DNA of 63,986 bases, filler included, from Folioceros fuciformis (GCA_049999805.1; 4 parts of 4 records of this genome joined end to end with filler, not necessarily neighbours in it); one strand, 5' to 3'. Shown: positions 1,271 through 62,106, counted from the first letter of the whole stretch. The notes: generated by a model not told the origin, from the sequence alone. A program made the numbers and translations.

Positions 1271-1399
1271 CGGGCTTGCTGTGAAGGAGTTCCAAAGTCG
1301 CCGGTTCTTCTAGCTCTTGGGGGTATACTGGACCTACCACCTTACCTTGGTTTAACTTTGATTCAAAGTCTGCCCTTTACTTCAGTAGGGGTAAGCTGA

Positions 1400-6056: not shown

Positions 6057-6098
<42 letters not shown>

Positions 6099-31091: not shown

Positions 31092-32077
31092 TTAAAGCAT
31101 GACATAACACCTAGAGCAAATCCTGATTCCAAGCAAATAAGCTACAGCGAAGAGTGAGGTCATCGCCAGGGGCTGGTCAGCAAAGATGGATAGTCGTGAA
31201 TGCAAACAGTCTGCGTTCGTCTCGAAGGGATGCCCGGCAGGCCTCCCTCCATCCCATCTCTGCCAACAGGAAGCGGCATCACATGAGGCATCTTGCATCC
31301 AGGTGACGATTGAGACCGTGGAAGTCCGTGCCACCGCCACTACCGACTTTCCGGTAACCGGCCCAGGCTTGGGGGAACCATCAGGGGCTCCCGGATGCCA
31401 GTCGGGCGCAGTGGACTGCACCTCCGGCAGCTGGAACATCGCGTCCGNNNNNNNNNNGACTGCACCTCCGGCAGCTGGAACATCGCGTCCGAGACCCTCC
31501 GCAGAGTGGGGAACTTTTCCATATCCACCTCGAACGATCGCGCATTGTAAACCTGTGGTATCAGCACCACATCCGCCAGGGTCACCTCATCCCCGAAGCA
31601 AAACCTCCCGGCACTTTCCTCGACCATGCGCTCCAGCGCGGCGAAGCCCTCGAGAACATAGCGCCTGGCCCAAGCGAGCCTAGCCTGGTCCCCCTCCCGA
31701 GCCGCGACCTCCAGCAGCAGCTTGCCGTTCTGGAAGGGCTGGATCCCGGACACCACGACGGCTACCGCAGCGCGCACCGCCGCGCGCTGCCGGAGGTCCA
31801 GGGGGAGGAGGGGGCGGCGGTCCGGGAAGCGCTCCTCCAGGTACTCCAGGCAGGCATTGGAGTCGGGGATGGCTGTGCCGTCCATGAACAGGACTGGCAC
31901 CTTACAGAAGGGGTTGAGGCGGGTGAAGCGGGGCGCAAACTGATGGTCTTTACGAAGATCCACCACTTCGATGCGGAAGGGAATGGCCTTCAGCGCCAGG
32001 GCCAGCCTCACACGCCAGGAGCAGGAGCTGTGCCGGTGCGAGAACAACACCACTTCTGCGCAGGCCTCCTCCGCCAT
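31092..32077 (-). CDS. GSTZ: Glutathione S-transferase zeta (maleylacetoacetate isomerase-like), intronless
   Basis: SSCSWRVR(L)AL, LNP..KVP, SGIQPFQN, GDEVTLADV. Collapsing the duplicated 34 bp around the N gap at 31448-31457 restores the frame to the stop at 31092. Confidence 0.85.
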
Positions 32078-36745: not shown

Positions 36746-39700
36746 TTAGCTTTCAGTAGGGTCGAATCCTGAATAGATGATTCTTGCAGGGACATCGACC
36801 GCTGGAAACGATTGCTTGGTGATGGTAAGAGTTGGTCGCAACGGGGTAGGAGGGCCAGGGTGTGGAGGCCTGGGAGGCCGACGAAGGGCTTTTTTTTTTT
36901 TTTTTTTTTTTTTTATAGGACCCGAGGACGTTATCGTCTTGGTTGCATCCGGTATCATGGGGGGACTTCGTGACGGGAGGCTGAACGCGCTTTCTGGACT
37001 GCAAACAGGAGCTGCGTTTGGGGACAGCTCCGGACTTCCTGTCCCGGCGCTTGACGTGGGAGATGAGGGGTTAGGCAACGCCAGGTTGCAAATGCCCAGT
37101 GCATTGCAAGTGGTCGGTGCAGTAGCATGCGTCCGAGTCGGTCGCTGGGTTTCCAACGTCTCCGGGCCTGCAGCTGAGTCCTCTGGGCTGCTGGTCGTGA
37201 GGCCTTCTTCGGGTACTTCGGGAATGGTGTTCTCTGATGGATTTTTGCGGGTCTTCACGAGCACGTTACCTGATCTAAGTTTCGCGGCTGCTCCATCAAT
37301 GAGGACCACACTTTGAGACTTGCCCATCCCACAGCTAAGGTTGGAGACCAGCGGGTTGTCGAAAGTTTCAGATTCAATGTCGAAGTCCAGGGATTGCCTC
37401 AGTCCGGAAAGGGATTGCACCAGCTGCTCCATCCAGGATGCCACTTGCCTCATTGTTGGCCTCTCCTTCTGTGACTCACGCACGCAGATCTCAGCAATAT
37501 TGGCCAGCTTGCAAATGGACTCCGTTTGCCGACGGTCTCCCTCCAGGATGCGGGGATCCAGAATTGCGGAATCCAGAATCTCGCCATCCTGTATTAAGGA
37601 TCTGGGATTTGAGCACCAACGGATGGAGCTGGTCAATCAGGACTCACCTCCAAGAGCAGGAGTAGGAAGAGGAGGGAGGCTTTGGCAATGGGAAGAGGTT
37701 CCTCACCTGCATCTGCTCACCAGGTTGGCGTCCCCATCCGGGTGCTGCTGCCTGTCAATGGCCTTCTGGCCTGTGAGCAACTCCAGCAAGACTACTCCGA
37801 ACCCGTACACATCGCTCTTGAGGGACAGATGGTAGGTGCGGAAGTACTCTGGATCCCAATAGCCTGGCGTGCCCTTAGGATCGGTGAAGACATGTGTCTG
37901 CTGGTCGTGCGGCCCCAGCCGAGAGATGCCGAAGTCAGACAGCTTGGCGTTCCACTCCATGTCCAGAAGGATGTTGGAGGATTTCACATCCCGATGGATC
38001 ACCGGCGGGACCATGCAGTGTAAGTACTCCAATCCCTTGGCAGTTTGTGCTGCGCGAGCAAGGGATCACAGCATCCAAGTTACAGTACAGTGGTTGCAAA
38101 CGGGCTCATCTACCAGGGCGGAGCGCACATGTCGCGAGATGAGTTTCAGGGTTTGAACACACACCTGCCACCCGCAACCGCACAGACCAGGAGGACACCA
38201 GCTGGCTCAGATGCTGCACTGTGCTGCTCTCTAGAGTGTCACCCTTGCCATGCAGATGGTCGTATAGAGTGCCATTCTCCACGTAGTCGAAGACAAGCAA
38301 CCGCCGGTCCTGAATGATTCCCCGCTCCTGTTTCTCAAGACTTCCTTCCGAGCCGGGGAGGGCTGTCGCATGGTGCTGTGCGTACTTGTAGCTGCTCCAG
38401 GGAACCAGGCATGCTTCCAAACTTCAGTCAGATGCATGCAAGTCGAGGCAAACGTAACTCGCAAGGAAAAAGGCAGGCTAAGTTGCAGACTGTCTTCCAG
38501 TATTACTGAGCCTCACCTGTGAATGGCATACTTGATGGCACAACGAATGCCGTGAGGCGACACCCTGAACTTCGCTTCCGGCCCTCTCTCATGGCAGAAC
38601 CCCACAAGATTGACCAGGTTGGGATGGTGCAGACGCGCCAGGAGCTTCAGCTCGCTGTCGAAATCCACAAATCGATTATGCATGGAGGTTGCGGGTTTGT
38701 GCTCCAGTCTCTTCACCGCAACCAGCCTTGTGACAGGGCAACGCACCATGCCCTTGAACACATGGCCGTAGCTGCCCTTGCCAACCAGATTTTTATCACA
38801 GAACCCTTCCGTGGCCATCTGTAACTGCCTGTATGTGAACTCTGTGACCTGCATTCCATATCACATGGCTTTGCGTCTAGATACCAATGCTTTGTTCACA
38901 ACGCTTAGTCTGACATAGGTACCTCAACAACCAAATCCAACAAACCTTCAAGTGTTCCTGCTCGTGGAAATGCTGAACAGAGCGGACCAATTTGTGGCCT
39001 TTGATTTCCAGTCGTGACAAGATGTAAATGAGCTGCAGCAGCACAAGTACGAACGTGACGCCGAGCAGACAAGCCAAGGTGCGAACCTTGCTCGTATCCT
39101 TGCCGTATTTTCGATCAGGGGATGCATCGTCCCCGCCCTTCTTGGACGTTTCATTGTTGCTTTCATGCTCACGGAAAATATGGCTGCTCGCATCGTCCGC
39201 ACAAGTTTCGCAGCTTATGCAGAGCCCCAGATTATTACTCCCGCAGGAGCCATCCTGGGGGTACCTGTCGGACCCGCATATCCGACATCTGGGCGCCCCC
39301 TCTCCCAAGCAGTAAGCCCTGAGAACGGAGTTGTCGCCTATCGTGTCGGCTACCACGCATACGAACGTGTCGCCAGTAGATGCAGCTCGGATTTCGTGAG
39401 CTGCGGGGATTGGGAACTGGAACCCCAGTCCCTCGACTTTCCGATCCGACCAGCACTGCAGCCTGCTGTCATTGTATCTGATCCCGCAGCTGAAATCCAT
39501 CCCTGTATAATGATTTCAAGCAAGACGGAACAACAGAGAGGGTCCAACTCTGTCAGTAGCTGCCTTGAGCAGACTGAAAGAGAAGTTGAAGTTGGGTTTT
39601 TCTTCCAACACACCTGAAACAAGCATCCTGAATCCAGCATCAGGTGGGTTGGGCAGGGGAAATGGGCTGGTGGTGACTGCTCCCCAGCACATCGGCTGCC

Positions 39701-40649
39701 GCGTGGGCTTGATACTGTCGCCTTCTTGGTACGAGTAGGCAAGGAGCACGCACACATGGGAATCCCCGGCGGATATGGCAGAGAAGGTGTAATCATGGAG
39801 CGTCTCTCGGAAATCGGATGTGAGGATGGTGCTCCCGCCTGCTGGATCCACGGCTTCAAAGCCAGCTGAACGTGAAATCTCCCGCGGGATTTCTCCCCAG
39901 CAAACCAGTGAGGTTTGGTTCAGGGCGGGGATTCCGCAGGTGAAGTTGTTCCCAACAGCAATGGTTGCGTAGGAACCCAGAGGATAGATGGGAGGAGGCT
40001 GAGCCTGCTTTGAAAGTGTCGTATAATTCAGCTCCGGAATCCAACACAGGACATTGCCGGTATGCCAAGGCTCTGCACCACCATCAACAAGCACCAAGAT
40101 TAAAACCGGAGTAAAGCTTGCTAAGGAGTTGAAGCTTCAAGGTGCACCACGCGTGCAAAGCAACATCTCACCGCTGGAGTTGGAGACGCGGACGATTCCG
40201 CAAACGTGAGAAGCCCCAGCGGCCAGAGTAGAGAACGCGACGTTTCTGTATTCTGTCGGCAAGGGAATCTCGAGAGAGACATTTTCGGCACTCCAGCAAG
40301 CAACAACTCTTGTGAGGCTAGACGTAGCTTCGCTGGAATTGCTCCACAGACCACAGAAAAAGGAAGCACCCGCTACAAGTTCAAAGGAGGGGCCGTATTG
40401 AACACCTGGTACTGTGACCAGACTCGAATCCTGCCCCCAACATTGCACAGATTGGTGTCCGTCAGCAGCTGCTACTGCACAAGCTACCCCTGTGGCGTAC
40501 GAAGATGCTATTGTGGATATGGGAGGCTGGGCTGATTGGCTGTGAATGGTTCGGAGCAGGAAGATGGCAAAAAGCAGGCATCCATGTTGAGATTGTCCAG
40601 GCAGAATGCGGTTGAGCTTTACACTGTATACGTAAGAAGATGGGACCAT
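36746..40649 (-). CDS. CRINKLY4/CCR-like receptor kinase (crinkly/RCC1-like repeats, TNFR-like Cys region, TM, RD kinase), multi-exon
   Basis: Repeated (A/S)G..(F/H).CG...CW units; CRICGSDRYPQDGSC...CISCETC; TM LACLLGVTFVLVLLQLIYIL; GKGSYG, VAVK, HRDVKSSN, SDFG, GTPGYWDPEY. Confidence 0.85.
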
Positions 40650-43221
40650 GGCGATGATCTACAGGCAAACAGAACGAGAGTTACTGACTTGTTCGGAACT
40701 CCATAACCAGTTTGATCCATTCAGAACACTAGGCAGAACCTGTCGTCTAGGCCCGCTTGAGATTGGGTGAACTTCTGCTGAGGACAAGGAACTCGCGTCA
40801 ACCGTAACCAACAAGGACTCAGCTGCTCTTCTAGTATATGCACGTGCATCAAAATGATTGAGAATGAGCTGCCTCAACTATCCACCTCGTCTTCAGAATC
40901 TAGCCACTTCCAGTACACCCCGGCTAGCACGACCGGCATGAACGCTCTCGCCCTCCTAGGAACACGTCAAGAGACAGAAATGTATTGAAAGCTGCAGTAG
41001 AGATGTTCTTCATGATACAGATCAACGAAACGAGGGACAGACGGTGTGTATCAAATTTTGGAATCCAAAAGGTTGCAGAGTTTCAAATATGTGCATCTGT
41101 GCCAGATGCAGGCGCAGGTCCCACATACCCTCGCCCGCAAAAGGCGAAATAATATCCGGCAAAGCTGCTGCAAACGGCCATCACGGTGGGTAGTCACTCC
41201 ATGTCTCCAACCTGGCTCACACAGTAATCTGCATACTTGGTCAGCGAAAGGACAAACCGAGGCCGGCAAAACTTGGCGATGCATGCATCAGGTAGAGTTA
41301 AAAGAGACCAAGTTCACCTCCCTTGCCCAGGTCGCAGACGCTCTTGGTCTTAGGCAACAAAGCCGTTACACTCGTGGAGAAACACGCAGGGGAGGATCAA
41401 GGCCTGTTGCATGCACAAATACCGCTTTCAGCACTTCACAATTCGCAGGAACGCGTTGGAAGTATCGAGCACTTCCTTCCAATGGAGCTCCGCTTATCCA
41501 AAGAAGACGGCCAGCTTATCCATCCCATCTTCCTGAGAAGCATAAGCTGCCCTTTGTTCAATTGTGGCTGTTCTGGCTGGCATACTCCTGAGCTCTGACT
41601 TCAATACACAGCGTTCGGCTCTTCAGGAAATTTAAAGCAGCCTGGCTGATTCCACAGAACAGACTGAAAACTGTCCAGAAGTCGTGAGGTTGCAAGTCGC
41701 TACCTCCAGACTGGCCGATTCCGCTGCTCCTGCTGTCGGTGAGAGGCGATCAGAATTCTAACAGTGTTGCGTCGTGTCGTGATTCTTCTCCGCCGTAGTT
41801 CAAATCACAGATCTAGATCAACCGACATTTAACACAGGAATAGACTACACTCAAGGGCCTTCCGTGGCAAATGACACCCGCTACCAGAAGATGCAGCAGG
41901 CAAGGCACGGAGATCGACTTGTTTCCATATCGAGAACAGAAGTGGTTGCCTGACTTCACTTTCCCGCTGAAAGTTTAACTGTCGCTAATAACTACATCAA
42001 TCGTAATATCAAATATGAGAACGCTTCCTGACACCTTCAGCGACTTACGCTTTGTATCAGGAGCGATGAACACTCACGCAATGCATTTGCGCCAGGCTCA
42101 TGAACGGCCTGGAGAAGAAAGGTGATCAATTTAGTGTTGCATTCTGCAATGTCAGGCTCAGCCTGTTGAAGCATCCCGTCAATACCAGACAAAAATCATT
42201 CCTGAACCAGAGGCCAAGCCGCAGCAGCTACACATTTTAGCTGCCTTTATGTTTCACTTAGTGACTCCACAAGCATGCACTCCATCCGTCTTAATTCACG
42301 ATGTTGGCCTCGAGCTGAAACCCGTTTCGTATTGTAGTCCTTTGCACAATGGAAAGGCTTATTCCACAACACGCAAAGCGCCTTGTGATGCCTGCCTTGT
42401 GATGATCTTCAAGCTCTCCACCACTCCCCTTCACTACCTGAAAACACAAAGACGTGTGAAAGGAAGCTGCAGAACTCGAAGGTGCTAACGTTTGCCGATC
42501 TAAGCAGCATCTTTCGGATTAAGCAACATCTTGCACTCAGATCCATACTTAGATGGGTTACCTAAGTAGAAGAAGGCCCTTTTTGAGCAAATAGCTGGAT
42601 AATTCTATGATGGAAGTTGTTAAATACCTAATCCATTCAAGTACCTAGTACCAAGTCCCATGTTAAGTACGGAGTCCAATGACTAGAAATATTTGTCTTT
42701 AGTGGAATAAAATTAAATTCTTCATTGTTTTTGAACTCCCGAAGTCCAACCACCTGGTTTTTCTCGTTTTATGCCATTGTTCCAACCCTCCGAGGTTCCG
42801 AAGCAAGGTTGTGCGTGGCCGGCAAGTGCTTTGAGAGGCTGAAGTCATGATGTTCATTATGTACGTATTTTTGTTGTACGGAGTAGCGGCTAAATTCCAC
42901 AGAAACTGTTGGATGTGTAGACAGTGCGCCTTGAGAAGCGCAGGTGCCGCCACTTGGAGGCCTCCTGGGCGATGGCAATGGCGTGCCCGAAGTTTGGCAG
43001 AGGGTGCTGCTGGCTACAGATCTCCTCGCTCGCAATTGCCGCCGCGATTCCCTGGCCTCCTCTAGGGACCCAGCGCCGGCGCTGTGCATTAGCGAAAGGA
43101 AGCCTGCCCCCTGGGCCTCACCGGCTCCACTGGAAGCATCCTTTCTTGGCCTGCGTCTCTCGGGACGCGCTTTGCATGCAGGAAGCATTCTCATGGAAGG
43201 CAAGATAGGTGGATGTGGGAG

Positions 43222-46200
43222 ATGGCTGCCTCGCTCATCGTCCTCCTGTTGCTCGCCTCGTTCGCTCTCCCGGCGCGCAGTGTCCATGGGAGCGTTGATG
43301 CATCGCCACTGCAACGCCGATTCGCCCGACTCCCGGTCCGCAGACATGATGAACACGATCATGGAGGAGGGATGCCCCTGGGGCGTGCCCATTTCCTGGA
43401 CACCGGAACTGCCTACGCCATCTCACAAGAGGGGGCGAGCGTGAGGACGCGGCGGCAGCGAGTGCTTGTGGACGACGGTGGTTCTGGATCCGGTTCTCCG
43501 GGCAGTACCAATTTCTCCTTCAGACGAGGAGTAGAAGGGAGGGTCATGGGGACACCCATCACCGTCTACCTCATCTGGTACGGGACGTGGGAGGAGCCCA
43601 GCAAAGCAGTCGTCAGAACTGCCTTCCGATCCCTGACCCCAGACAGTGTCACCCAGAATCACACGTCCGGGCCTGACGCAGATCTCCCGACGCTGGAGAG
43701 GTGGTGGGAGATCGTTCGGCAGTACCAGGGTCCTGACCACGTGCCTGTAACAAACAACGTGACGCTGGGTGCGGAGTGCGTGTACAACGAGAGTGGAAGT
43801 GGGGGCAACGTCACCGATGCCAATGTGACCGCCGTGGTTGCCCTGGCATTCCAGAGCCCCGGCAGCCTCAACTGCACTCTGCCTCAGCAGGAGGATGCTG
43901 TCTACTACATCGTGTTCAGCCGAGATATGCAGTTCGCGTACGACGCCCTGGGGGGTGCTCTTTCCTGCTCCTGCTCCGGGGCGTACACGTTGTGGCTGGA
44001 CCAGGGCCCGCGGCTCAGGCTGCTGTGGAGCAAGATGCCGGCGGTGGGCGATTTCTGCAACTTTTGGAGCCAGTGGCAAGCGCTGCTGAGTCCGCCCAAT
44101 GCGGATTCGGGGCTGGACACTCTCGTGTCGAGCATGTTGGGACAGCTGGCCGAGACGGCAACAGCCTTCGACGGGGAAGGATGGCTCACCCAGGACAATC
44201 GCACTATCCGTCAGGTGTGCCCCTGGCCCATCATCAACCCGGACCCGAGCTCACGCCCCGTGGTGGATGACAACCAGGTGAGCTTCAATCTGGTGGGCAT
44301 CCACGGATCCCGCTTCCTGGTGCAGCAGCTGTGGAGCGTGGAACACGGGAATTGCATGCTGCAGATGCTTCCAGGTAGTCGATTCATCGAGAAGGTTGGT
44401 TGGAGAGAGTGCTTGAAATGATGAATCATGTTGTTGCAGTGCAGAGGTGTTATGGATGTCACCAGGCTACCAGATTGTGGTGCTAGTAAGCGCGTTCATG
44501 TGAGACCCTGACGGAGGTATGTTGGGATTAATTCAGATGCGTGCGACGGGACGGTGATCGTAACAGACGCTCAGAGAACCATCCAGAAAGGGCTCATCGT
44601 GGCCGGCAAGTTCGGCCTCCAGCCTTACAGCCCCAACCTCAGGTGCAGCTGGATCGTCAACGTGACCCAAGCCAAATTCATCCACTTCTGGTTGGACTTC
44701 CTTGCGGTGCCGCCCGATAACCCTGTGAACATCCTTTCGGATACTGCCTCCTGCTCGGACAACCCCAACAACTTGGGTCACCGTGAGGCAAATTTGCTGT
44801 CCAACGCGGCCTCGTGGACGGCAGGACAGCATTCAAGGAAGCTGCTTGCTTTTGCTGATCAACTGAATGCAACATCACCATTCGCAAGCGGTTGCTCCTC
44901 CCAGTTTGGGGGGTTTCTCTACGACCAACGTCCCGTGGATGCTGTGGTCGAAGACAACGCTATGCTCATCACTTTCAACAGCCGGAGCGTTGTGAGCCCC
45001 AGGGCCAACGGCTTCATCCTCAAGTATGAAGCTGGTAAAGAATGTTGTGGTCTACATTTCCGCTGCATGTAACCTGCTACTGCTCCATCATGTCCTAGTA
45101 CTTACACTATCACGAGCCATGATACATTTTGATGATAGGTTTCTGCCAAGGGCAAGAGGTCATCAACAGCAAAACAGGCAATATCTCCGACGGCAGCCCT
45201 GATGGACAAGTCTATGGCAGGGGGCTCTTCTGCAGCTGGCTACTTCTTGGCAAGCCACACACACCTGTGCTTCTGAGATTCAGCAGAATCAACACATCGA
45301 GCAGCAAGGACACTGTGGCTGTTTACAGTGGACGCGCCATCATCCCGTCTTCCACGCCCATCCAGACCTTCTCGGGCAACTTCACTAATCCGCCTCCTCA
45401 GGTCCGGCTCAGCCTTCAAATGTCGCTGCGCATGCTCCTTCCGACCATGGATGATGATGAATGGCTAGCCATGACCTCTGAGTGTGTGTGCATGTGCTGT
45501 GGCTACAGATCGCGACAGAGGGCCCCATGCTGGTGGTCTTCTCCACGAAAACAGGAGGCGGCTTAGGCTGGGAGGCAAGCTTCGTGATCTCCAGCCCTGA
45601 CAAACTCCCTGGAAGGCACCACACCAGCAGAGAAGCCCTGATTGCAGGCATAACGGCATCCATCTTGGGCGTGGCCTTTGTGCTGGTTGTGGGGACGGTG
45701 CTGTGCTGCTCCAACCGAAGGATACAACAGAGGGGCCATGTCAAGTGTTCAGTGGGACGGTTGGGCATAGGCAGAGAAACACTCTTCCTGCTCAACCGCA
45801 ACAAGAGGAGCGTTTTCCCTGTGGCCGAGATCTCTAGGGCTACTGGCGGATTCAACCAGGCCAACCTGTTGTCCCGCGGGCGTGCTGGGCAGATGTACAG
45901 GGGCGTGTTGGCAGATGGCAGACTGGTGACGGTGAAACAGTCGCCGTCCATGGACTTCAATTCCGCCAACCGGGAGCTGGAAGTTCTGGCGGGCTTGAAG
46001 CACAGCAACGTGGTGCAGCTGGTGGGATACTCCCCGGACCCCATTGGCAGGCTCCTCGTGTTCCATCACCCGGAGAACGGGAGCTTGAGGGACGCTCTTA
46101 TCGGGCCCCTGAGTCAAAGAGAGCCCATCACCGGCTCTCAAGGCCGGAACTCCAAGTTGCTGCTCAGCTGGGAGCTGAGACTAAACATTGCCCTCGAGGT

Positions 46201-47134
46201 TGCAAGGTGAATGCAGATTTCCACACCTCCCGATCTCCAATTTCAAGAAGCAGCAGCCGAGTGGATTTATTGGAAGCATAACTTGCTGACAATGTGTGTG
46301 CAGAGGGCTCGAGTACTTGCACATCTTCGCGGATCCCTGCGTGATCCACCGGGACTTGAAATCCAGAAACATTCTGCTGGACAAATGCTGGGCTCCCCGC
46401 ATATCTGGATTCCACCTTGCCGTTTTCTGCGCCACCGGAGATCAGGTGGAGCTCTTTGCTGATCCAAGGTGGGTACCGACGTCGAACCACTTCCCTGGCT
46501 CTCCCTTGAGCCGAGGCCAGAGTACTGGCACCATTCAGGTGTCCAAGGCCGGCGACATCTTCGGGTTTGGGGTCATAGTGTTAGAGATTCTCACAGGCCG
46601 ACAACTTCTGGAGACGGGGACCTTCAATTCGGGCCACACGAGATCACATCTGGTGNNNNNNNNNNNNNNNNNNNNNNNNNNNNNNNNNNNNNNNNNNNNN
46701 NNNNNNNNNNNNNNNNNNNNNNNNNNNNNNNNNNNNNNNNNNNNNNNNNNNNNNNGCTGTGACTGTCTTCAATTGTATTCCTATGACCGGCCAGCGCAGG
46801 CTCATGTTGAAGAATCTGTGCATTTGACATGTTGTTGCTGCAGGTCGCACGAGCAGTGCCTCTGATCGAACACGGGCAAGGGCTGAGTATTTTGGATCCC
46901 CGGCTGCCAGTGCCCGAGAAACCAGAAGTTCTGCTGAAGCTTGCGGAGATGGCGGTGTGGTGCGTCAACCCCGCGACTACAGCCAGGCCGACAGTTGTTG
47001 AGGTTGTCAAGGCGCTGGAGCAACTGATGAAAATGTTTCATGCGGGCAAATCCATCACGCGAAACCCCAAGCTGGATCCCAACAGAGTCCACATGTCCAT
47101 CGCCTCACCTTACGACGGGCCACCCCGTCTCTGA
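43222..47134 (+). CDS. Receptor-like pseudokinase: signal peptide, EXORDIUM/PHI-1, CUB, CUB, TM, kinase; exons 43222-44374, 44537-45034, 45139-45401, 45509-46206, 46304-gap, 46844-47134
   Basis: EXO motifs VYLIWYGTW, WW...QY, PPNAD.G.D, FNLVG..G.RFLVQQLW. CUB motifs PYSPNLRCSWIV and G.ISDGS...Y...LFCSWLL...L.F. Kinase HRDLKSRN with DFG replaced by GFH. The junctions upstream of the N gap are GT-AG and in frame. Confidence 0.85.
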
Positions 47135-47806
47135 CCTTTCTTGTCCCCATTCCTCTCACACAGATTCTGCGAGATACATGCGTAAGTACATACACTAGCA
47201 TTTCTTGCAATGGTGCCAAATGTACCGATGCCATTCACGGACAGGGCCATCCTCCTAAGCAATTGGTTGATAAACGTGCCGAACCGATACCCAAAATTTA
47301 CAACGTGTCATGATAAGCCCTGCACTCTCGCCGCCACAAGCTCTGTGCGAAAAATGTTGGGAGCTCAGGCGAGAGATGCCAAATCAGATGCTTCATCATG
47401 TGGACAGGCTTATGCGACTGCTAGACGCGCAGACAAAAGATAAGCAGCCCGTGCAACCATTTAGTACCAAGATCAAACTATTCCTTAATTCAGGCTCATG
47501 CTCGACTGATACCTGTGGACTGATATCTGCAGAGTAGGTGCTTGCTGAAGCATTCGCTGGGTAATACACTTTCATCGGCAACATGGTCACACAACCTAGT
47601 TCATGATGATGGAGGCCCCAGGTGTCGCGGAGTATACCACGTCATCGTCTCCACATCCACACCTATGAGACTGTCTCAGAGCCAACGTACTTAGGCTTTT
47701 ATGCGCACAGCGTAGGTCTCATGGATGCAGGAAGTTCCCCGTCTTCATCTCCGCCGGCATTCTGATCAGGGGAGACCAGCCTTGTAAGAGGTTATTGTTT
47801 ACAAAG

Positions 47807-50800
47807 ATGCGGAAACAAGCACGGCACAAACAATGGGCTCAGCTCAGGATATTGGGCCGGCCTCTCTTGACGGGAATCGCTCTAGGACCCACCCCGCTGT
47901 TGTGGGTTGCCTGCCGAGCCTCGCCCCGTCTGGTTCACGTGTTTCAGGACGGCGTCCTCCAGGTTAGCTTGCTGAGGGATCCTTCGTGAACATTAAGCAG
48001 GGTGCTAATTCCACTGTGTCCTCTTGTTGGCTGCGCAGGCAATTTTTAGATTTCAATTCGATCCTTCCTTTCTACTGCTCGGAGACCTCAATGAGGAAAA
48101 CGGGGTTGACACTGCAGAAGAGGGGAAACAGAGTAGTACACGGAGTGCCTCCTTGCTGGTCATCACTGCAGACGGATCTGTTTTCCTCATCAAGATGGCG
48201 AGCAAGGGCCCTCCCAGCTGTAGGTCTGGTGTTAACTTTTTCATCGTTTTCAGAAAGCCGCTGTTGATCCACATATTCCATGTTCCATATGCATCCACCT
48301 TGATGAAACTGGCTTTCCTTGCAGATGTAGGACTTCAGCAACGGGTCTAAATTTAGTACGAAACCCAAGCAAGCATGCCAAGCTTGGTGACCATTCCAAG
48401 CTCCCCTTCGAGGAATGGCAGCTCTTTGAGGATAACGATGTCTACGATGAATGTATCTGCCCCGTGGTGGAAAATGTGCATAAGCAAAATCTCGCCAAGG
48501 GCATGGAAGCTGGAGAGTCATGGAACGCAAACCAGAAGGCCATCTCACGTCTGCTATGGACCAACTTGAATGTCTCTGAATATTCAAGGAACATGCAGTT
48601 TCTGACACCAACTTCAGTCTCTGCAGAGGCATTTCTGGGGTCTCTGCAGGCTGCAACCGTTGGCCTGTTCAGTACAAGTACATCAGTAAGTTCTTGGCTC
48701 ATTGGCAGGTTCGCTTCCATTTTAGCTGTTCGGCACTGAATATTGACCGGAGTATCTCCTTATACTTGAGGTTATATGTCGTTCAAGGTGATTATCATGG
48801 AACAAGCAGGATCCCCAGTTCTTCTTCAAGCAGGTTCCACAGATGCGCAGTACCCTGACCAGCTGTCAACTGGTCTCAGGCAAACAGTCGACATGAACAG
48901 TGAACCGACTTGTTTACTTTTTGCGTCATGCGCAAGAACAAGCCATTCCGACGGATGTAAAAACGTGGCCACGTTGCTCTCTGAGGCACTCTTTACTTGT
49001 CTCGTCGGGAAAGGAGTGGGAATGATGCCGCGCCATCTACTTATTCAAGGTAGCCCATTTTTTCTTTTTCACTGTTGGTTAAGGAGTCAACTTTGGCTTA
49101 CTTTGTCTCCTAATATTTTTCTCCTTTGGGAGTTTAGGTGACGACCATGGCAAGGTATCCATTTATGCCGTGCCTAACTTAAGGCTGACAGGAATGACGA
49201 AAAGAGTCCTGCTTGACATCCATGAACCGATTGTAGCCCTTCTCCCTCTCTCCTCTGATTCTCAAGATGGCCAATGTGCAGAGCTTATTGGACCAGACAT
49301 TATGCTAATTGTTGGACAGTCGGGTACAGTTCTTGCACTTACTTCTATAGGTCAAGATTCAAGTGACAGCCCATTTATACCTTGCAAAGATGCAGGGAGC
49401 GAGCTGGCGATTCAGGTGACCGCTGATGTGGGGGTTCTCAAGTGGTCCGTCAAGTCACCAGTTTCATCAGCTTGCATGCTTGGATCACGGCACTTATGTT
49501 ACAGAGTTGGAGCTGAAGTTTTTGTGGCTGAACTATTTGAGCGTGGTCCATCATCCACTACTTTATCTCAAACTTGCACATTCGGGAAGCAGTTGAGGCA
49601 CAGGCTCCTACACAAAGCAGTACCTATAGCAGATCGTATTTGTGCTGTGGCAGGCAATCCTGGTGCTGGAAGGGCATTAAATGGCAGGCCACTCGTTGTA
49701 CTAACAACACGCGGACGACTCATTGGACTGGAGGTCCTCGATGAGCCTGCTTCAAATGCGGTTGGTGATAAAGGACTTAATGTTGAGCGTTCAAATAGCT
49801 GGGCTATGTCGCAGGCACGGACACAAGAGAAAGTAAAGGTAAGCCAGAGTTCTTGGTTATGGATTGCGGGTCTATTCCTTACGTGTTTGTTCAGATGGAA
49901 AACTCTTGTGACAAAGCGGTTCTTGTGCTACAGAACCTCCTGCAAGCGGTGGCAGACACTGCCAGACACACAGATGCTATCAGGAATCGTAGTCGTGCTA
50001 TAAACTTGGCCATCAATGAGCTCGCTGCATCTTTGTTTCTTACGTATGACTTGTCCATCAGAAACGTTAGATCCGTGTATCTGTCACCAAACACCCTACA
50101 AGGAGGTGAGCCATCAAACAAGACTGCGAACACGGGCGGGAAAGGCTTTAGTTGTACCTTGCAGGTAAATCAATTCCCCTCAGTGATCGTCCCTCCAGAG
50201 CAGTTGGTGTTTGCCGCAACTCCCACCTCAAAAGGGACAGCTATCTGTCTGTCAAATTCTCCTTCCATTCAAGTTTGTGTTGATCTTCAGAATCTCAGTG
50301 ACTACGCCCTGTCCTCTTATTGGACACTCATTCTTAAATTTGAATGCGTGGGATCAAGCCGCAAATCCGTGGTTAGGTGGGTGTCTATAGTCATCAATCA
50401 CGGTGAAGGGTTGCAGGCTGGTTCCCATTTCAGTCATGACCTTCAGGTTGAACTCCCTGGAAGTTATCTCTCACCAGTAACTGTCTCCGTCTTCTTATGT
50501 CACCTCCAAGATTACCATGAACTCCTTGTGTCCAATCCAACTCAAAATGGCAACGCTGGCTGCTGCACCAGTGTTGGAACCACGTTCTCCAGCGGTGCAA
50601 CAGTACCAGCACGGTTGGATAGTAGGAACATCGCAGAAGGGAGAGGGCTTCTTCCTAAAAGTGGTGAAGATGGGACAAGTCAGTTTCCTGGAGCCGTAAG
50701 TTTCTTATTGTGTCAATATCGTGTTGACATTCTGTCCTTCTTGAGAGCTCCGTCAGTTGGGACTTCTCTGTCTTCAACCTCCACAACAATGTGGAATTTC

Positions 50801-51696
50801 CCATCTGAGGCAACTACAGATGACCTAAGACAGGATACAGATGGCGGCACTAATTCCACTTCATCGGGGAGTTTCTGTCTGGATGGCTTTCACCTAGGAA
50901 ATATGTCAGATGTCGAGGTGCAAAACTGTTGGCAGCAGTTGAATCTCGGGGATCTGGAACAAAAGGGACTTGTCTCCAAGGTTAGTGTCGTTGTGTATCA
51001 GTATTATGTACCCCAGACCTGGCATCTTAGTTCCAACCCCATTGCATTTTTTAGTGCTCCTACTTTGGTCATCTGACGTCCCTATTTATCACACTAGGCT
51101 GGTTATCAGATTACTCTCATGGCTCCTCATAAGGAGATGCTCTCACTTTTAATGCGAAAGCCGCAAGTAGCAGACGACAGCCAGAAGCCCCCGTCTCTTT
51201 TCTATCAAGCCACGTCTTCATGGCTTTGCTACCTTCTGCGGGAAGCTCTGCTTTGGCGCTTGACGCAATGCAAGAGGGAACATAAGCCAGAAAATAGTCC
51301 TCCTATTGATCAGAAGAGGCTGAAAATGAAAGGAGGTAAGCTAGTCGGAGTGCTTCCAGGAACTGCAGCAGAGCAACGAGGACTTGATCCGAAGCTGGAG
51401 CAGAGAAAAAATCTGGTTGACATCCTTGGTGATCGGGCTCAAGCGGTTGCAACACAATGGAAGAAGATTTTTGTCGACAATACACCAGAGAGTGCAGGTG
51501 CCCTCCACTTTGAAAATCACGTCGCAATACTCTGCTCATCTTACAGCCTCTGCCCAATGTTTCTCACCACTGTTTGTCTGCAGATCTGGTGACACCTGTG
51601 TTGATACAAACTCAGGAAATTGTTAAAGACCTGGTGAGAACTCACAAGGAGCATCGTGAAGATCCTGCCTCGAATCCCTTTGGTTACGATCACTGA
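47807..51696 (+). CDS. Fanconi anaemia core complex-associated protein 100 (FAAP100)-like, multi-exon; 5' end uncertain
   Basis: Colinear motif matches to my recollection of vertebrate FAAP100: LSEALF, DIHEPIV, LVVLTTRGRL, QEKVKNLLQAV, LQNLSDYALSSYWTL, SPVTVSVFL, YRVDILSFLR. Confidence 0.7.
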
Positions 51697-51865: not shown

Positions 51866-54847
51866 TTAAGTCCCGGTGTGCTTCTTACTGACAACCAGAA
51901 AACTATGCACACGTCCGTCAAAGTCTGTCCACCAGCTCTGACCTGGCTGCTTCCTAGCCCCCAGTGTTTTTCTAATGTTCTGCATCTCCTTTGCCTGTTC
52001 CCACATTTGGGCACCAGCATAGATGTTAGACATCAAGACATATGCTGCAGCATCCTTGTTGTCCAGCTTCACAGCTTCATCGAATGCTTGACGTCCCACA
52101 TCCACGTTGTTCCACTTACTGCAAGCACCCAGCAAAGTACTCCAAACTGCGCCATCGCGCATCACAGGCATTGCCTTTATCAAATCTAATGCCTCGTGCA
52201 GCTCTCCTGCCCTACCTAGGATATCCACCATGCATGTGAGGTGGTCTGCAGTGGGAGTGATGCCATGATGCTTACTCATACCCTCAAAGTACTCTCGCCC
52301 CTTGTTCAAGAGACCCGCATGACTGCATGCTGTTAGTATACTAACGAATGTAATGCCAACTGGCTGTGTACCATCCTCTCGCATTCTTTCGACGAGGTCA
52401 AACACAGCATCACTGTCCCCTTGACAAGTATAGCCTGCAATCAGCGCGTTCCAGGCGACAACATCTCTATCCGGCAACGCGTCGAACACTTGCTGTGCAT
52501 CGACCATGCTCCCGGACTTTCCGTACATGGTTATCAGACTGTGGGCAAGAACCACATCCGTTTGAAATCCATGTTCAACAATCTGTGCGTGTAATTGCCT
52601 TCCTAGATTCAAGGCTGCCACATTCGCACATGCCTGAATGAGGGATACGAATGTCACAGAATTCGGTACTGTGCTGCCGTCTTTCTGCATCGCTTTGTAA
52701 AGGCCAAGGGCTTCCTGCCCCATGCCCTGCTGGGAATATCCCGTTATCATGGAGTTCCAAGTCACAATGTCCTTTTCACCCATCCCGTCGAACACACTCT
52801 GAGCATCTTCCAAGCTGCCACACTTTGCATACATGTTCACCAAACTGCTGCCTATAAACACATCAGATTCGTGTCCTCCCTCCCTAATCTGCTTATGAAT
52901 CTGCCTCCCTTCCTCCAAAGCATCGGTGCCTATACTTGCACATGCCTGCAGAAGGCAGACAAATGTCCCAGAATTGGGTTCACCTGTACCATCTTCTAGC
53001 ATAGCACTATATAAACACAAAGCTTCCTGCCCCCTGCCCTGCTGGGAATATCCTGCTATCAAGGTGTTCCATGTGACCACATCCTTTTGATCAAGCCCGT
53101 CAAACACCATCTGAGCATCTTCCAAGCAGCCGCACTTGGCATACATGTTCACCAAACTACTCCCAACAAACACATCAGCCTGATGTCCTTGTCCTCTTAC
53201 CAGCGTATGCAGCTGCTTCCCTAGCTCCAAGGCTGGGGTGCCCACATGGGAACATGCCTGCAGGAGGCACGCAAATGTCACGGAGTTGGGTATAGCGATG
53301 CCCTCCTGCTGCATAGCACTGTACAGTCGGAGGGCTTCCTGCCCCATGCCCTGTTGAGAGTACCCCGATATTAGAGCAGTCCATGTCACCACCTCTTTTT
53401 GACAAAGTCCATCGAATACTCTCTGAGCATCTTCCATGCTGCCACACTTTGCATACATATTCACCAAACTGCTAGCAACAAACGCATCAGCTTCATGCCC
53501 ACGTTCTCTTATTTGAGAATGGAGTTGCTTCCCTGTTTCCATAGATGGGATGCCAACACTCGCACATGCCTGCAGGAGGCAGGCAAATGTCACAGAATTG
53601 GGTACAGCAATGCCCTCTTCTTGCATAACCTTGTAAAGACTAAGCGCTTCCTTGCCCATGCCCTGCCGGGAATACCCTGCAATTAGAGCAGTCCATGTCA
53701 CCACCCCTTTTCGATCCAGTCCATCAAACACTTTTTGAGCATCGGCCAAGCTGCCACACTTTGCATACATATTCACCAAACTGCCACCTACAAACACATC
53801 GGCTTGACATCCTTGTTTTCTGATTTGCGCATGAAGCTGCCTTCCCTTCTCTAACGCGGGGGTACCAACTCTTGAACATGCCTGTAGGAGGCACACAAAC
53901 GTCACAGTATCAGGCACAGCGCTACCTTCTTCTTGCATAGCACTGTAAAGAGAAAGAGCTTCCTGCCCCATACCCTGCTGGGAATACCCAGCTATCATGG
54001 CATTCCACGTCACAGCATCTTTTCGCTCAAGTCCGTCAAACACCCTCTGGGCATCTTCCAAGCTTCCACATTTGGCGTACATGTTCACCAAACTATTACA
54101 AACAAACAAATCAGGCTCAACGCCGCTGGCCAATATGTCAGCATGCACTTGCTGCCCTGTTTTCAAGTCTAAGCCCCTAGCACAAGCCTGAAGCGCTGCC
54201 ACAAATACATGGCCGTCCGGTTTCACCTTCGACATGCACATCCGATGATACAGGCGTATGGCATCTCGGTCTTGTCCATGTTTGATATGCGCAGTTATGA
54301 TGGCAGACCAAGTAAACGCATCTGGTTTGCAAATCACGTCAAACACATCCATCGCGTCTTGCAACCTGCCTTGAGATGCATACATCCGCAAGATGTGGAA
54401 GCCCAGGAACGTATCTGACTCGTACCTCTTCTTCACCGTCACAGCATGAACCCGACGACCCAGAACCAGATCCTTCTTCACCACACATTTATTCAGGACA
54501 CTGTAAAGGAGAGATTTGGAAATGGACCCCTCTGTCTGCAGCAGAACTCCCAATGCCTCAACAGCCTCACTCACATAACCCTGTTCACATAGCTTGCTCA
54601 CGGTTTCAGCAGTTAAGGCTTTATCGTGACCTACAGGCTTGGCTTCGCTGGAGGATGTCTTCCGGGCACTAGTGGTGCACTTGGCAACTTCAATGTTTGC
54701 TAACGCTTGCGTCCTTGAAGTCGGGCGAGCGGATCCGCTCCCCAGAACACTAGTTAAGCCAGCAATCTGTTGGGTCCACGAAGCCTGTCTCCCCAACGGA
54801 TCCTTTTGCCCTTTGAATGACTCAATCGCCCCACTACAGACAGCCAT
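51866..54847 (-). CDS. PLS-class PPR protein with E domains and truncated DYW:WW-type N-terminus
   Basis: About five highly similar ~104-aa PLS triplets; ends KQPGQSWWTDFDGRVHSFLVV...*. ATG at 54847. Confidence 0.92.
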   Translation of the reverse strand: MAVCSGAIESFKGQKDPLGRQASWTQQIAGLTSVLGSGSARPTSRTQALANIEVAKCTTSARKTSSSEAKPVGHDKALTAETVSKLCEQGYVSEAVEALGVLLQTEGSISKSLLYSVLNKCVVKKDLVLGRRVHAVTVKKRYESDTFLGFHILRMYASQGRLQDAMDVFDVICKPDAFTWSAIITAHIKHGQDRDAIRLYHRMCMSKVKPDGHVFVAALQACARGLDLKTGQQVHADILASGVEPDLFVCNSLVNMYAKCGSLEDAQRVFDGLERKDAVTWNAMIAGYSQQGMGQEALSLYSAMQEEGSAVPDTVTFVCLLQACSRVGTPALEKGRQLHAQIRKQGCQADVFVGGSLVNMYAKCGSLADAQKVFDGLDRKGVVTWTALIAGYSRQGMGKEALSLYKVMQEEGIAVPNSVTFACLLQACASVGIPSMETGKQLHSQIRERGHEADAFVASSLVNMYAKCGSMEDAQRVFDGLCQKEVVTWTALISGYSQQGMGQEALRLYSAMQQEGIAIPNSVTFACLLQACSHVGTPALELGKQLHTLVRGQGHQADVFVGSSLVNMYAKCGCLEDAQMVFDGLDQKDVVTWNTLIAGYSQQGRGQEALCLYSAMLEDGTGEPNSGTFVCLLQACASIGTDALEEGRQIHKQIREGGHESDVFIGSSLVNMYAKCGSLEDAQSVFDGMGEKDIVTWNSMITGYSQQGMGQEALGLYKAMQKDGSTVPNSVTFVSLIQACANVAALNLGRQLHAQIVEHGFQTDVVLAHSLITMYGKSGSMVDAQQVFDALPDRDVVAWNALIAGYTCQGDSDAVFDLVERMREDGTQPVGITFVSILTACSHAGLLNKGREYFEGMSKHHGITPTADHLTCMVDILGRAGELHEALDLIKAMPVMRDGAVWSTLLGACSKWNNVDVGRQAFDEAVKLDNKDAAAYVLMSNIYAGAQMWEQAKEMQNIRKTLGARKQPGQSWWTDFDGRVHSFLVVSKKHTGT

Positions 54848-55789
54848 TGCTTGTATGAGCACGAGCTGAGCCTACGAAGCAACAGTCAAGCCACCCACTC
54901 GTTTCCTCCAAATCTGCCCTCAGAAGAAAGCGACGAGGGATCCATCAGTGAACAACAGAAGGAAAATAAGGAAGCCTCACTCACATTGCATACATAGCTT
55001 GTTTGTAGACTGGTATGGCGCAACTTCTCCCAAGCTACTGGTAAGACACTCAAAGGCCCCTAATGGGCTACATTATTCAGTCTATCATACCTGAAATCAC
55101 CTTCGTTTGGGTATAAGCTCAGGTGAGCTCTTATCATATTCCAAATCACAGCTGGCTTACCGACATGATTACACATTTATCGATGCCCGAGAAACATGTA
55201 CAAAGGTCAGAGCCTGCGAAGCGGATGTGTGCAGCCTGAACATGAGCAAACTGTCTTAGATATCGTCTGGGAAACGCAAAAGGAGGGAACGTGCCGAGAC
55301 ATGTTCTCATTTGTGAGCAGCTCGGAGGCCTATATCAACCTCGAGCAGCCCTGCTGCATAGTGCCTGTGGATCCCTGGAGAAAGCACGTGCGGCTTTCTA
55401 CGGACTGCCAGTTAAGTGCAGAGTCTGAGTCTTGTCATGTCTCATGTCATGTACTTGAATCTTGAGAGGCTGTGAATGAAGATGCTGGCGATGCCCTTCA
55501 ACGTTCCTAATGCCCAAGGAGGTTCTATCCTAGCGAACCGATTTGTAATCTGTATCCTTCAACTCTCGTCTAGCATCATATAGCTGCCCGAGCTTTAGGA
55601 AAGCAGATTCATGTTTAGCTTATCGTAGGCAGACATCGGTGTGATGGGACGGTGCTAGCTATGCAGTTATCATGTCTTTCAAGAGTGGGGGACTTTTGAG
55701 GTTGCAACCACGATATTGACAACAGGCAAATAAATGGTAGCAGATTCAGTATCCTGGACAAATGGACACTGTGGTTACAGGCCGGTGTC

Positions 55790-61700: not shown

Positions 61701-61800
61701 TCCAAGCTGCTCCAACTTCTCGTAGCTGCTCTAGCTTCTGGTGTGCACTCTTGCTGCCTCTTGCAGCACCTCCTACGCCGATCTTGCACCGCCTGCACCG

Positions 61801-61813
61801 GGCTCTGATACCA
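61801..61813 (-). other. Primer-binding site (tRNA-iMet)
   Basis: TGGTATCAGAGCC directly after the LTR end TGACA on the - strand. Confidence 0.92.
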
Positions 61814-62106
61814 TGTCAATAGGATCGACTCCAATCTACGTGCAAGTGTAGGAGAGGAGAGGAGAGAAGAGAGGGTGGTATTGGTGATCACAACCATGAA
61901 AACAATACACATCACCACTGTCTTACTATGGAGGTCCGAGGTCTCCATTTAAGTAGTACATTTAGGGCTACACAACTTCCAGGTTCAATATGGGATAATC
62001 TACACTATCCTAAGTTCACTAATAACTAGAACTAGTCTAGTATGAACCCAACTGGGATAACTAACACCACATGAGTTTAGCTCATATAGAGCTCGATAAC
62101 TCAACA
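61814..62106 (-). repeat. 5' LTR of the Copia element (293 bp, TG...CA)
   Basis: Minus strand TGTTG...TGACA, bounded by the PBS and by interruption of a second Copia ORF. Confidence 0.85.

What the first reader, a model, noticed from the sequence alone, without database searches (positions are those of the whole stretch)
36746..47134. Head-to-head receptor pair: CRINKLY4-like active kinase facing the EXO-CUB pseudokinase
Seen: the two RLK genes are divergent, with ATGs ~2.6 kb apart (40649 and 43222). One kinase has all catalytic motifs; the other lacks the DFG Asp. Both share an unusual F(T/A)DP(K/R) activation-segment motif. Known: divergent sensor/executor pairs occur among plant NLRs and some RLKs. 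Inference: a co-regulated two-part receptor system, with kinase domains from a local duplication followed by ectodomain swapping.
Basis: partly seen in the sequence, partly recalled or inferred. Interest (0 to 1): 0.78.

Follow-up and report, generated by a model that had tools for sequence, protein, structure and literature searches.

The report
Adjacent CRINKLY4-type kinase and EXORDIUM-CUB pseudokinase
Two neighbouring plant receptor-kinase genes that face away from each other carry related CRINKLY4-type kinase domains, one intact and one apparently dead and joined to an EXORDIUM-CUB sensor part, but nothing yet shows that they work as a pair.

Summary
Gene A (40649-36746, minus strand, 7 predicted exons) encodes a CRINKLY4-family receptor kinase with seven crinkly repeats, a 6-Cys module, a TM helix and all catalytic motifs. 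Gene B (43213-47134, plus strand, 6 exons) encodes signal peptide, Phi_1/EXORDIUM, two CUB-like modules, TM helix and a kinase with DFG changed to GFH. One spliced RNA contig confirms 5 of 5 gene B introns.

Both kinase domains fall in one clade with CCR-type CRINKLY4-family kinases (support 92/93). That they are sisters is only weakly supported (83/31). They share about 36-41% identity, and their intron positions differ, so any duplication is old.

The shared F(T/A)DP(K/R) string is rare (0 of 125 RLKs). Its positional equivalence is ambiguous, because MAFFT aligns B's ADPRW with A's WDPEY.

The CUB/Phi_1 ectodomain combination is already catalogued in metaRLK, so gene B's architecture is not new.

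Co-regulation, interaction and conserved adjacency could not be tested. CRINKLY4-type kinases with degenerate neighbouring paralogues also turn up in other plant contigs.

Verdict: a new member of known kinds. The pairing idea is plausible but unproven.

The parts
40172..40649 (-). Gene A exon 1: start codon, hydrophobic N-terminus, crinkly repeats 1-3 (start of repeat 3)
   Evidence: ORF and splice reading; C..CW motifs
39614..40072 (-). Gene A exon 2: crinkly repeats 3-5
   Evidence: Best PDB match is the ACR4 ectodomain 7a0j (E 2e-7), then 7a0k (5.5e-4); repeats
38946..39502 (-). Gene A exon 3: crinkly repeats 6-7, 6-Cys module (CRICG...), TM helix, juxtamembrane segment
   Evidence: the CRICG module resembles that of CCR-type L019
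38564..38848 (-). Gene A exon 4: kinase N-lobe (GKGSYG, VAVK). The donor is uncertain; alternatives are 38571 or 38517
   Evidence: Pfam Pkinase hit; three in-frame models; no RNA evidence
38165..38309 (-). Gene A exon 5: beta5 to alphaE with a long alphaD-alphaE loop. The acceptor is uncertain; alternatives are 38327 or 38391
37707..38049 (-). Gene A exon 6: catalytic loop HRDVKSSN, DFG (37936-37928), FTDPK (37888-37874), DPEY
   Evidence: Pfam Pkinase 80.1 bits
36746..37601 (-). Gene A exon 7: kinase C-lobe end and a ~220-aa low-complexity tail. Contains a run of about 25 A (36890-36914) that reads as a lysine run
   Evidence: reads are cut at 36881-36923
40650..43212 (.). Spacer between the two start codons. 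No recognisable gene or RNA family
   Evidence: 0 Pfam families in 10 of its 31 stop-to-stop ORFs of 50 aa or more and in the 181-aa ORF; 0 Rfam matches; no kinase-like relics by tblastn
43063..43212 (+). Gene B 5' UTR as far as the RNA contig reaches. Two out-of-frame upstream ATGs (43176, 43193)
43213..44374 (+). Gene B exon 1: signal peptide and Phi_1/EXORDIUM domain (about 43534-44358)
   Evidence: Pfam Phi_1 87.1 bits against a cut-off of 25, profile positions 5-274 of 276; 28 of 30 nearest Atlas clusters are Phi_1-only; intron confirmed
44537..45034 (+). Gene B exon 2: first CUB-like module, with an insertion
   Evidence: Pfam CUB 21.1 bits against a cut-off of 21.4; best PDB hit is cubilin (E 0.048); introns confirmed
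45139..45401 (+). Gene B exon 3: most of the second CUB-like module
   Evidence: Pfam CUB 20.1 bits; all 9 weak PDB hits are CUB proteins; introns confirmed
45509..46206 (+). Gene B exon 4: end of CUB2, TM helix (45635-45712), juxtamembrane segment, kinase N-lobe (SRGRAG, VTVK), long alphaD-alphaE loop
46304..46652 (+). Gene B exon 5: HRDLKSRN, GFH in place of DFG (46407-46415), FADPR (46455-46469), degenerate P+1/APE region
46844..47134 (+). Gene B exon 6: kinase C-lobe end (AVPLI, RPTV) and stop codon

Best explanation
This is a land-plant locus with two neighbouring, divergently transcribed receptor-kinase genes. Both kinase domains belong to the CRINKLY4-like (CR4L) subfamily.

Gene A is a CCR-type CRINKLY4-family receptor. 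It has a seven-bladed crinkly-repeat propeller, one short Cys-rich module, a TM helix and an RD kinase with every catalytic motif. I therefore infer it is an active kinase.

Gene B belongs to the rare but already catalogued CUB/Phi_1 class of RLKs. It has an EXORDIUM-type domain plus two CUB-like modules outside the cell. Inside, it has a CR4L-type kinase fold that has lost the Mg-binding DFG Asp, the first glycine of the G-loop and a clear APE motif. I therefore infer a pseudokinase that signals as a scaffold or a substrate.

The adjacency is most simply a remnant of an old local duplication within the CR4L family. That family readily forms local arrays with degenerate copies. Gene B's ectodomain is of separate origin.

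Shown: the gene structures, the domains, the motif states, transcription and splicing of gene B, and same-subfamily membership.

Inferred: activity of A, inactivity of B, and the duplication history.

Not shown: any functional coupling.
For: Gene models and motifs:
-.
- All 5 of 5 gene B introns are bridged by one spliced contig at depth 47.

Gene A ectodomain:
- 7 repeats of the form C-x(10-20)-C[WL][GSI].
- Best solved-structure matches are ACR4 7a0j (E 2e-7) and 7a0k (5.5e-4).
- The CRICG Cys module is like that of L019.

Gene B ectodomain:
- Phi_1 at 87.1 bits.
- Two CUB hits at 21.1 and 20.1 bits.
- The weak PDB hits are almost all CUB proteins (10 of 11).

Kinase relationship:
- B's best hit among 125 RLKs is A (162 bits against 146 for the next).
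- A's and B's best hit among the 80 plant loci is the CCR-type L019 (251 and 158 bits).
- L074 was verified as CR4-family (7a0k 4.3e-21, 7a0j 5.9e-21).
- In the tree of 53 rows with activation-segment columns removed, A, B and 8 CCR-type kinases form a clade at 92/93.
- A and B have the two longest genuine alphaD-alphaE loops (21 and 23 residues). The loop is 15 residues in 5 of the 8 CCR-type rows and at most 13 in 42 of the 43 rows outside the clade that I count (L001 has 15; L048 set aside).

Local arrays of CR4L-type kinases with degenerate motifs elsewhere:
- L074 has a tandem kinase-only copy with HGD/NFG and a shortened activation loop.
- L051/L052 carry four copies in about 15 kb, one with HRN and GFG.
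- L055/L056 are also clusters.

CUB/Phi_1 is a catalogued multi-domain RLK ectodomain:
- Preprint 10.1101/2023.12.21.572927, section 7 read.
- metaRLK 2.0 supplement passages give Phi_1 in 48 RLKs and CUB in 50 by sequence, as I read the columns.
Against: - A+B as sisters has only 83/31 support once CR4-family references are in the tree. The 99/93 seen earlier came from a sample without them.
- B is a long branch (1.37-1.62 substitutions per site), so its placement is uncertain.
- My sample has no ACR4/CCR1/CCR2-type kinases, no other CUB/Phi_1 RLKs and no other RLKs of this genome.
- Kinase intron positions differ between A and B. A's are predictions only, since no RNA contig covers A.
- The CUB assignments are below Pfam's gathering score per exon, and the AF2 model was unusable (pLDDT 33).
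- Pseudokinase status is inferred from motifs alone.
Confidence: 0.62

Rival explanations
1. One reading: A and B are a co-regulated two-part receptor. The EXO-CUB pseudokinase B senses a ligand and signals through the active CR4-type kinase A. The two are expressed from a shared divergent promoter region.
For: - Head-to-head layout with complementary active and dead kinase states.
- Same kinase subfamily.
- Precedent inside the CR4 family: CCR1 and CCR2 are likely inactive, and ACR4 and CCRs interact through the juxtamembrane segment (PMC4617170, section 11 read).
- Gene B is transcribed.
Against: - There are no data on co-expression, interaction or conserved adjacency.
- The spacer is about 2.4-2.6 kb, which is not a compact bidirectional promoter.
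- The KD/ESAF juxtamembrane motif is not present in either protein on my reading. The paper also finds it undetectable in moss and lycophyte members.
- CUB/Phi_1 RLKs exist as a class in many genomes, which argues that B is not a locus-specific invention tied to A.
Confidence: 0.15
2. Chance neighbours. Both genes are CR4L-subfamily members, but they diverged long ago elsewhere in the genome and came to lie side by side through rearrangement. There was no local duplication and there is no functional link.
For: - Deep divergence: 35.6% by blastp, 38% over 294 aligned positions, path about 2 substitutions per site.
- Different intron positions.
- No relics of duplication in the spacer.
- Weak sister support.
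Against: - The maximum-likelihood tree still joins them.
- They share the two longest alphaD-alphaE loops.
- CR4L-type kinases form local arrays in other plants.
Confidence: 0.2
3. Gene B is a decaying, non-functional gene.
For: Loss of the DFG Asp, the first G-loop glycine and the APE motif; a long branch.
Against: - An intact 1086-codon frame across 6 exons.
- Correct splicing at 5 of 5 introns, in a contig of depth 47.
- Retention of the VAIK Lys, alpha-C Glu, HRD, the catalytic-loop Asn, the alpha-F Asp and RPT.
Confidence: 0.03

Closest known systems
CRINKLY4 family, CCR-type members (CCR3/CCR4-like), as described in PMC4617170 and represented here by L019 and L074
   Same: For gene A:
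- Seven crinkly repeats, a short Cys-rich module starting CRICG, a single TM helix and an RD kinase.
- Its kinase is the best match to L019 (43.9% identity over the domain, 251 bits).
- It groups with CCR-type kinases.
   Different: - Only 3 of 7 repeats keep the exact CWG. The others are CWS, CWI and CLG.
- There are 6 predicted introns, whereas L019 and L074 read as single open frames.
- The alphaD-alphaE loop is longer.
- The activation segment has FTDPK where relatives have xxKAAGT.
- There is a long low-complexity C-terminal tail.
- Gene A falls outside the tight CCR-type clade.
CUB/Phi_1 receptor-like kinases catalogued in metaRLK (10.1101/2023.12.21.572927; PMC13174206 supplements)
   Same: Gene B has Phi_1 followed by CUB modules in the ectodomain of an RLK. 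This combination is the only one of Pfam domains new to RLKs that ranks among the top 20 multi-domain ectodomains.
   Different: I could not see the member list, its taxa or their kinase families, because bioRxiv supplements are closed. So I do not know whether other members also carry CR4L-type pseudokinases or sit next to a CR4-type gene. No functional study of the class turned up in the six full-text searches.
ACR4 with the inactive CCR1/CCR2 (CRR1/CRR2) of Arabidopsis
   Same: An active CR4-family kinase together with CR4-family members whose kinase is likely inactive. Interaction between family members is reported (PMC4617170, section 11).
   Different: Those partners share the crinkly/TNFR ectodomain. 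Gene B has an unrelated EXO-CUB ectodomain, and interaction here is untested. My memory that ACR4 phosphorylates CRR2 and that CRR1/2 lack part of the activation loop is recalled, not checked.
Head-to-head sensor/helper NLR pairs
   Same: Divergent orientation of two related receptor genes, one with degenerate catalytic or signalling motifs.
   Different: A different protein class. No integrated decoy, no shown genetic interdependence, and a larger spacer.

Membership tests
CRINKLY4 family (gene A) | Seven crinkly repeats with C(X~10)CWG (PMC4617170, sections 11 and 13) | tested here: met
   There are 7 repeats C-x(10-20)-C[WL][GSI] at aa 57-379. Three have exact CWG. The best PDB matches are the ACR4 and 7a0k ectodomains.
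CRINKLY4 family (gene A) | TNFR-like Cys-rich domain (seven Cys in ACR4 orthologues) | tested here: inconclusive
   There is one module of about 30 aa with 6 Cys. It resembles the 6-Cys module of CCR-type L019 and L074. There is no Pfam TNFR hit.
CRINKLY4 family (gene A) | Signal peptide, single TM helix, intracellular kinase | tested here: met
   By inspection of the translation and Pfam Pkinase. No signal-peptide predictor was run.
CRINKLY4 family (gene A) | KD/ESAF juxtamembrane motif | tested here: not met
   Not present in the juxtamembrane segment. The source paper also fails to find it in moss and lycophyte members, so the failure carries little weight.
CR4L kinase subfamily (genes A and B) | Kinase domain groups with CR4-family kinases in a tree | tested here: met
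   The clade of A, B and 8 CCR-type kinases has support 92/93 in a 53-row tree. The reference L074 was verified by its ectodomain. The sample lacks ACR4/CCR1/2-type kinases.
Phi_1 / EXORDIUM (gene B) | Match to Pfam PF04674 above the gathering score | tested here: met
   87.1 bits against a cut-off of 25, covering profile positions 5-274 of 276.
CUB domain (gene B, two modules) | Match to Pfam PF00431 above the gathering score, or a CUB fold | tested here: inconclusive
   21.1 and 20.1 bits against a cut-off of 21.4, scanned exon by exon. Weak PDB hits are to CUB proteins only, apart from one haloalkane dehalogenase at E 0.61. The AF2 model has pLDDT 33. The second module is split by an intron and could not be scanned whole.
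CUB/Phi_1 RLK class (metaRLK) | Phi_1 and CUB together in the ectodomain of a TM kinase | tested here: met
   Domain order is Phi_1, CUB, CUB, TM, kinase in one spliced transcript. The class is named.
Pseudokinase (gene B) | Loss of at least one of VAIK Lys, HRD Asp or DFG Asp | tested here: met
   DFG is replaced by GFH. The Lys and HRD are kept.
Pseudokinase (gene B) | No phosphotransfer activity | not testable with these tools
   Needs an in vitro kinase assay.
Paired receptor genes (sensor/executor) | Conserved adjacency, co-expression, physical and genetic interdependence | not testable with these tools
   No genome is held. Only one RNA run was found, as contigs. Spliced proteins could not be handed to the complex predictor.

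The most novel reading that the evidence does not exclude
A and B form a genetically linked receptor module. A CR4-family pseudokinase that has acquired an EXORDIUM-CUB ectodomain feeds a different extracellular cue, such as a cell-wall or carbon-status signal, into the active CRINKLY4-type kinase next door. This would extend the ACR4-CCR active/inactive heteromer principle to partners with unrelated sensor domains. It would also give the uncharacterised CUB/Phi_1 RLK class a signalling partner.
Probability: 0.15. Interest if true: 0.7.

Novelty: new member of a known kind. Interest (0 to 1): 0.35.

Why it matters
CUB/Phi_1 receptor kinases are catalogued but unstudied. This locus gives one such gene an RNA-confirmed structure. 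It shows that its kinase is a CRINKLY4-type pseudokinase and that it sits beside an intact CRINKLY4-type receptor.

If adjacency and co-expression prove conserved, the locus offers a concrete partner for EXORDIUM-type extracellular domains, whose receptors are unknown. It would also be a case of a receptor family recruiting a foreign ectodomain onto a dead kinase. If they are not conserved, this is an ordinary pair of old paralogues.

Tried and rejected
- Whole genome and earlier findings: not available.
- RNA: no RNA holder was listed apart from the guessed run X1. In X1, gene A's exons have no cover, and only a 208-nt contig at 36539-36746 lies beside its stop. I draw nothing from this.
- Word-index search for long relatives of B's EXO exon: none of 8000 candidates. 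This was a false blank, given.
- Same search with B's exon 4: 5 hits among 4850 candidates, the best at 39% identity (a USP-type kinase, P0121). No B-like protein was found.
- Same search with A's exon 6: the list was dominated by multi-kinase fusion proteins and was uninformative for subfamily.
- Full-library search with A's exon 2 gave 1161 hits at E<=1e-3.
  - 0 of the top 150 carry a kinase.
  - 16 of 16 scanned are RCC1_2 repeat proteins.
  - It therefore yielded no CR4 references.
- Atlas with A's exon 6: generic kinase clusters only.
- Metagenome scan with B's EXO exon: none.
- AF2 on the first CUB exon without an alignment: pLDDT 33. No fold search was run on it.
- Spacer: no Pfam, Rfam or kinase relics.
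- Complex prediction and whole-domain folds were not run. The tools take only unspliced window sequence, and the kinase and propeller domains are split by introns.
- The idea that FTDPK/FADPR is a secure shared derived character is rejected as unproven.
Full report
**Context**

The window is nuclear DNA of a land plant. Its large ORFs include two intronless PLS-type PPR genes with E motifs, an F-box/Kelch gene, a GST and copia-type gag/pol pieces.

**Gene A (minus strand)**

From six-frame reading and GT..AG sites I built a 7-exon model:
- 40649-40172
- 40072-39614
- 39502-38946
- 38848-38564
- 38309-38165
- 38049-37707
- 37601-36746

The predicted introns are 97-115 nt, apart from the 254-nt one at the uncertain exon 4/5 junction, and every junction keeps the frame. 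The exon 4/5 junction has three in-frame alternatives. All of them insert extra residues between beta4 and beta5. No RNA contig covers the gene, so the model is a prediction.

The protein is about 1040 aa. It has:
- a hydrophobic N-terminus;
- seven C-x(10-20)-C[WL][GSI] repeats, three with exact CWG;
- a 6-Cys module beginning CRICG;
- a TM helix;
- a kinase with GKGSYG, VAVK, HRDVKSSN, DFG, DPEY and RPTM.

Exon by exon, Pfam sees only the kinase. The best solved-structure matches of exon 2 are the ACR4 ectodomain 7a0j (E 2e-7) and 7a0k (5.5e-4). The other 14 of 16 listed hits have E of 0.067 or more and are unrelated. These features match those that PMC4617170 (sections 11, 13 and 15 read) gives as defining the CRINKLY4 family. 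The exceptions are the shorter Cys-rich module and the absent KD/ESAF motif, which that paper also fails to find in moss and lycophyte members.

**Gene B (plus strand)**

The 6-exon model is 43213-44374, 44537-45034, 45139-45401, 45509-46206, 46304-46652 and 46844-47134. One 6796-nt contig of run X1 (depth 47.2) starts at 43063 and skips exactly these five introns, 5 of 5 with GT..AG. The gene is therefore transcribed and spliced as predicted. The 100-N gap lies within intron 5.

The 1086-aa protein has these parts:
- A signal peptide.
- A Phi_1/EXORDIUM domain (87.1 bits against a cut-off of 25).
- Two CUB-like modules. They score 21.1 and 20.1 bits against a cut-off of 21.4 when scanned exon by exon. 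Their weak PDB matches are spermadhesin, PCPE-1, cubilin and neuropilin.
- A TM helix.
- A kinase.

The kinase keeps VTVK, the alpha-C Glu, HRDLKSRN, the alpha-F Asp and RPT. It has SRGRAG for the G-loop, GFH for DFG, and no clear APE. I infer a pseudokinase.

A single-sequence AF2 model of the first CUB exon was useless (pLDDT 33).

**The spacer**

The spacer shows no Pfam family in 10 of its 31 stop-to-stop ORFs of at least 50 aa, nor in the 181-aa ORF. It has no Rfam family and no kinase-like relic.

**Are the kinases related?**

Direct comparison:
- The C-lobe exons are 38% identical.
- The whole domains are 35.6% identical by blastp, 38% over 294 aligned positions, and 41% over 255 kept columns.
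- Against 125 RLKs fetched with A's exon 6 and B's exon 4, B's best hit is A (162 bits; the next is 146). B ranks only 113th of 127 for A. That is the pattern expected for a fast-evolving relative.

First tree. A 53-row tree without CR4 references, with the activation segment removed, joined A and B at 99/93.

Getting CR4-family references. A metagenome scan with A's exon 6 gave 80 plant RLK loci (369 relatives among 610 pattern matches).
- 4 of the 80 (L019, L074, L075, L077) carry an A-like propeller.
- 0 of the 80 carry a B-like ectodomain.
- L019 (837 aa) and L074 (808 aa) read as single open frames.
- L074's ectodomain matches 7a0k and 7a0j at about 5e-21.

Both A and B score best against L019 (251 and 158 bits).

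Second tree. With these references, A, B and 8 CCR-type kinases form a clade at 92/93. A+B drops to 83/31. A quick tree left the A/B fork unresolved.

Support for a closer tie: A and B have the two longest genuine alphaD-alphaE loops of the 53 rows, at 21 and 23 residues. The loop is 15 residues in 5 of 8 CCR-type rows. Outside the clade it is 13 or fewer in all rows but L001, which has 15. I set L048 aside because it contains unspliced intron. The loop sequences themselves are not alike.

Against a recent duplication:
- The path length between A and B is about 2 substitutions per site.
- Neither of B's 2 confirmed kinase introns coincides with any of A's 4 predicted ones. The two nearest pairs are offset by 13 and 14 nt in my alignment.

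**The shared motif**

F[TA]DP[KR] occurs in 0 of 125 RLKs. In 141 activation segments from 102 of those proteins, Phe at A's position occurs 2 times, Pro 1 time and Asp-Pro 0 times. Pairwise BLAST aligns FTDPK with FADPR. MAFFT instead places B's ADPRW opposite A's WDPEY, which implies a deleted activation loop. The segment alignment score is reached by 268 of 2000 shuffles. CR4-type paralogues with shortened activation loops exist (L074's second gene), so the second alignment is plausible. The motif is real as a string, but it is not secure evidence of common descent.

**Context from other plants**

CR4L-type kinases form local arrays with degenerate copies:
- In L074 a CCR-type receptor is followed about 2.5 kb downstream, on the same strand, by a kinase-only gene with HGD, NFG and a short activation loop.
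- L051/L052 hold four kinase copies in about 15 kb. One of these has HRN and GFG, the same Asp-to-Gly change as in B.
- L055/L056 hold further copies, two of them convergent.

**Is gene B's architecture new?**

My own searches found no fused relative, and 28 of the 30 nearest Atlas clusters are Phi_1-only. Six full-text searches gave no functional paper:
- EXORDIUM with RLK terms;
- CUB domain with RLK;
- head-to-head RLK pairs;
- PF04674 with kinase;
- novel RLK domains in hornworts.

However, the metaRLK preprint (10.1101/2023.12.21.572927, section 7 read) states that CUB/Phi_1 is the one combination of previously unreported Pfam domains among the 20 most populated multi-domain RLK ectodomains. 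Passages of the metaRLK 2.0 supplements (PMC13174206) list Phi_1 in 48 RLKs and CUB in 50 by sequence, as I read the columns. The class is therefore catalogued. The member lists were not visible to me, because bioRxiv supplements are closed.

**Verdict**

The two kinases are same-subfamily paralogues, and an old local duplication is plausible but unproven. The functional pairing has a precedent in the CR4 family, where CCR1 and CCR2 are likely inactive and interact with ACR4. It remains untested here. The finding is a new member of known kinds and of moderate interest.

Noticed in passing
L074:1252-3678 and L074:6201-7529 (also L075, L077, L073): In a plant contig from a metagenome, an intronless CCR-type CRINKLY4-family receptor kinase is followed on the same strand by a kinase-only paralogue. 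That paralogue has HGD for HRD, NFG for DFG and an activation loop about 14 residues shorter. It is an active/degenerate neighbour pair within the same family.
   Followed up: partly
L051/L052 (four kinase copies at about 1322-14868) and L055/L056: These are local arrays of CCR-type kinase genes without a recognisable crinkly ectodomain. One copy has HRN and GFG, another HGD. Two copies in L055/L056 are convergent.
   Followed up: partly
window 47135-48069 and beyond: The gene B RNA contig runs about 830 nt past the stop. It then leaves the window sequence at 47963 and resumes at 48040, a skip of about 76 nt, and continues for about 2.5 kb more. This is either a 3'-UTR intron or an assembly that merges B with the next plus-strand ORFs (49170-51076, no Pfam family).
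   Followed up: partly
window 36890-36914: A run of about 25 A (on the gene strand) inside gene A's last exon reads as a lysine run. The read-laying tool skipped it as a repeat, so the length of the tract and the reading frame of the tail after it are unsure.
   Followed up: no
window 43176 and 43193: There are two out-of-frame upstream ATGs in gene B's transcribed 5' leader.
   Followed up: no
window 9535-12663 (+) and 51866-54862 (-): Two intronless PLS-class PPR genes of about 1000 aa with E motifs flank the region. The window also holds an F-box/Kelch gene (23709-24875), a GST (31340-32077, minus strand) and copia-type gag/pol pieces (59598-62709, minus strand).
   Followed up: no
P0033 (764 aa) and P0048: These database proteins are fusions of two kinase domains. 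The C-terminal one is CCR-type and groups with L019 and L074. They are probably merged gene models of neighbouring genes.
   Followed up: partly
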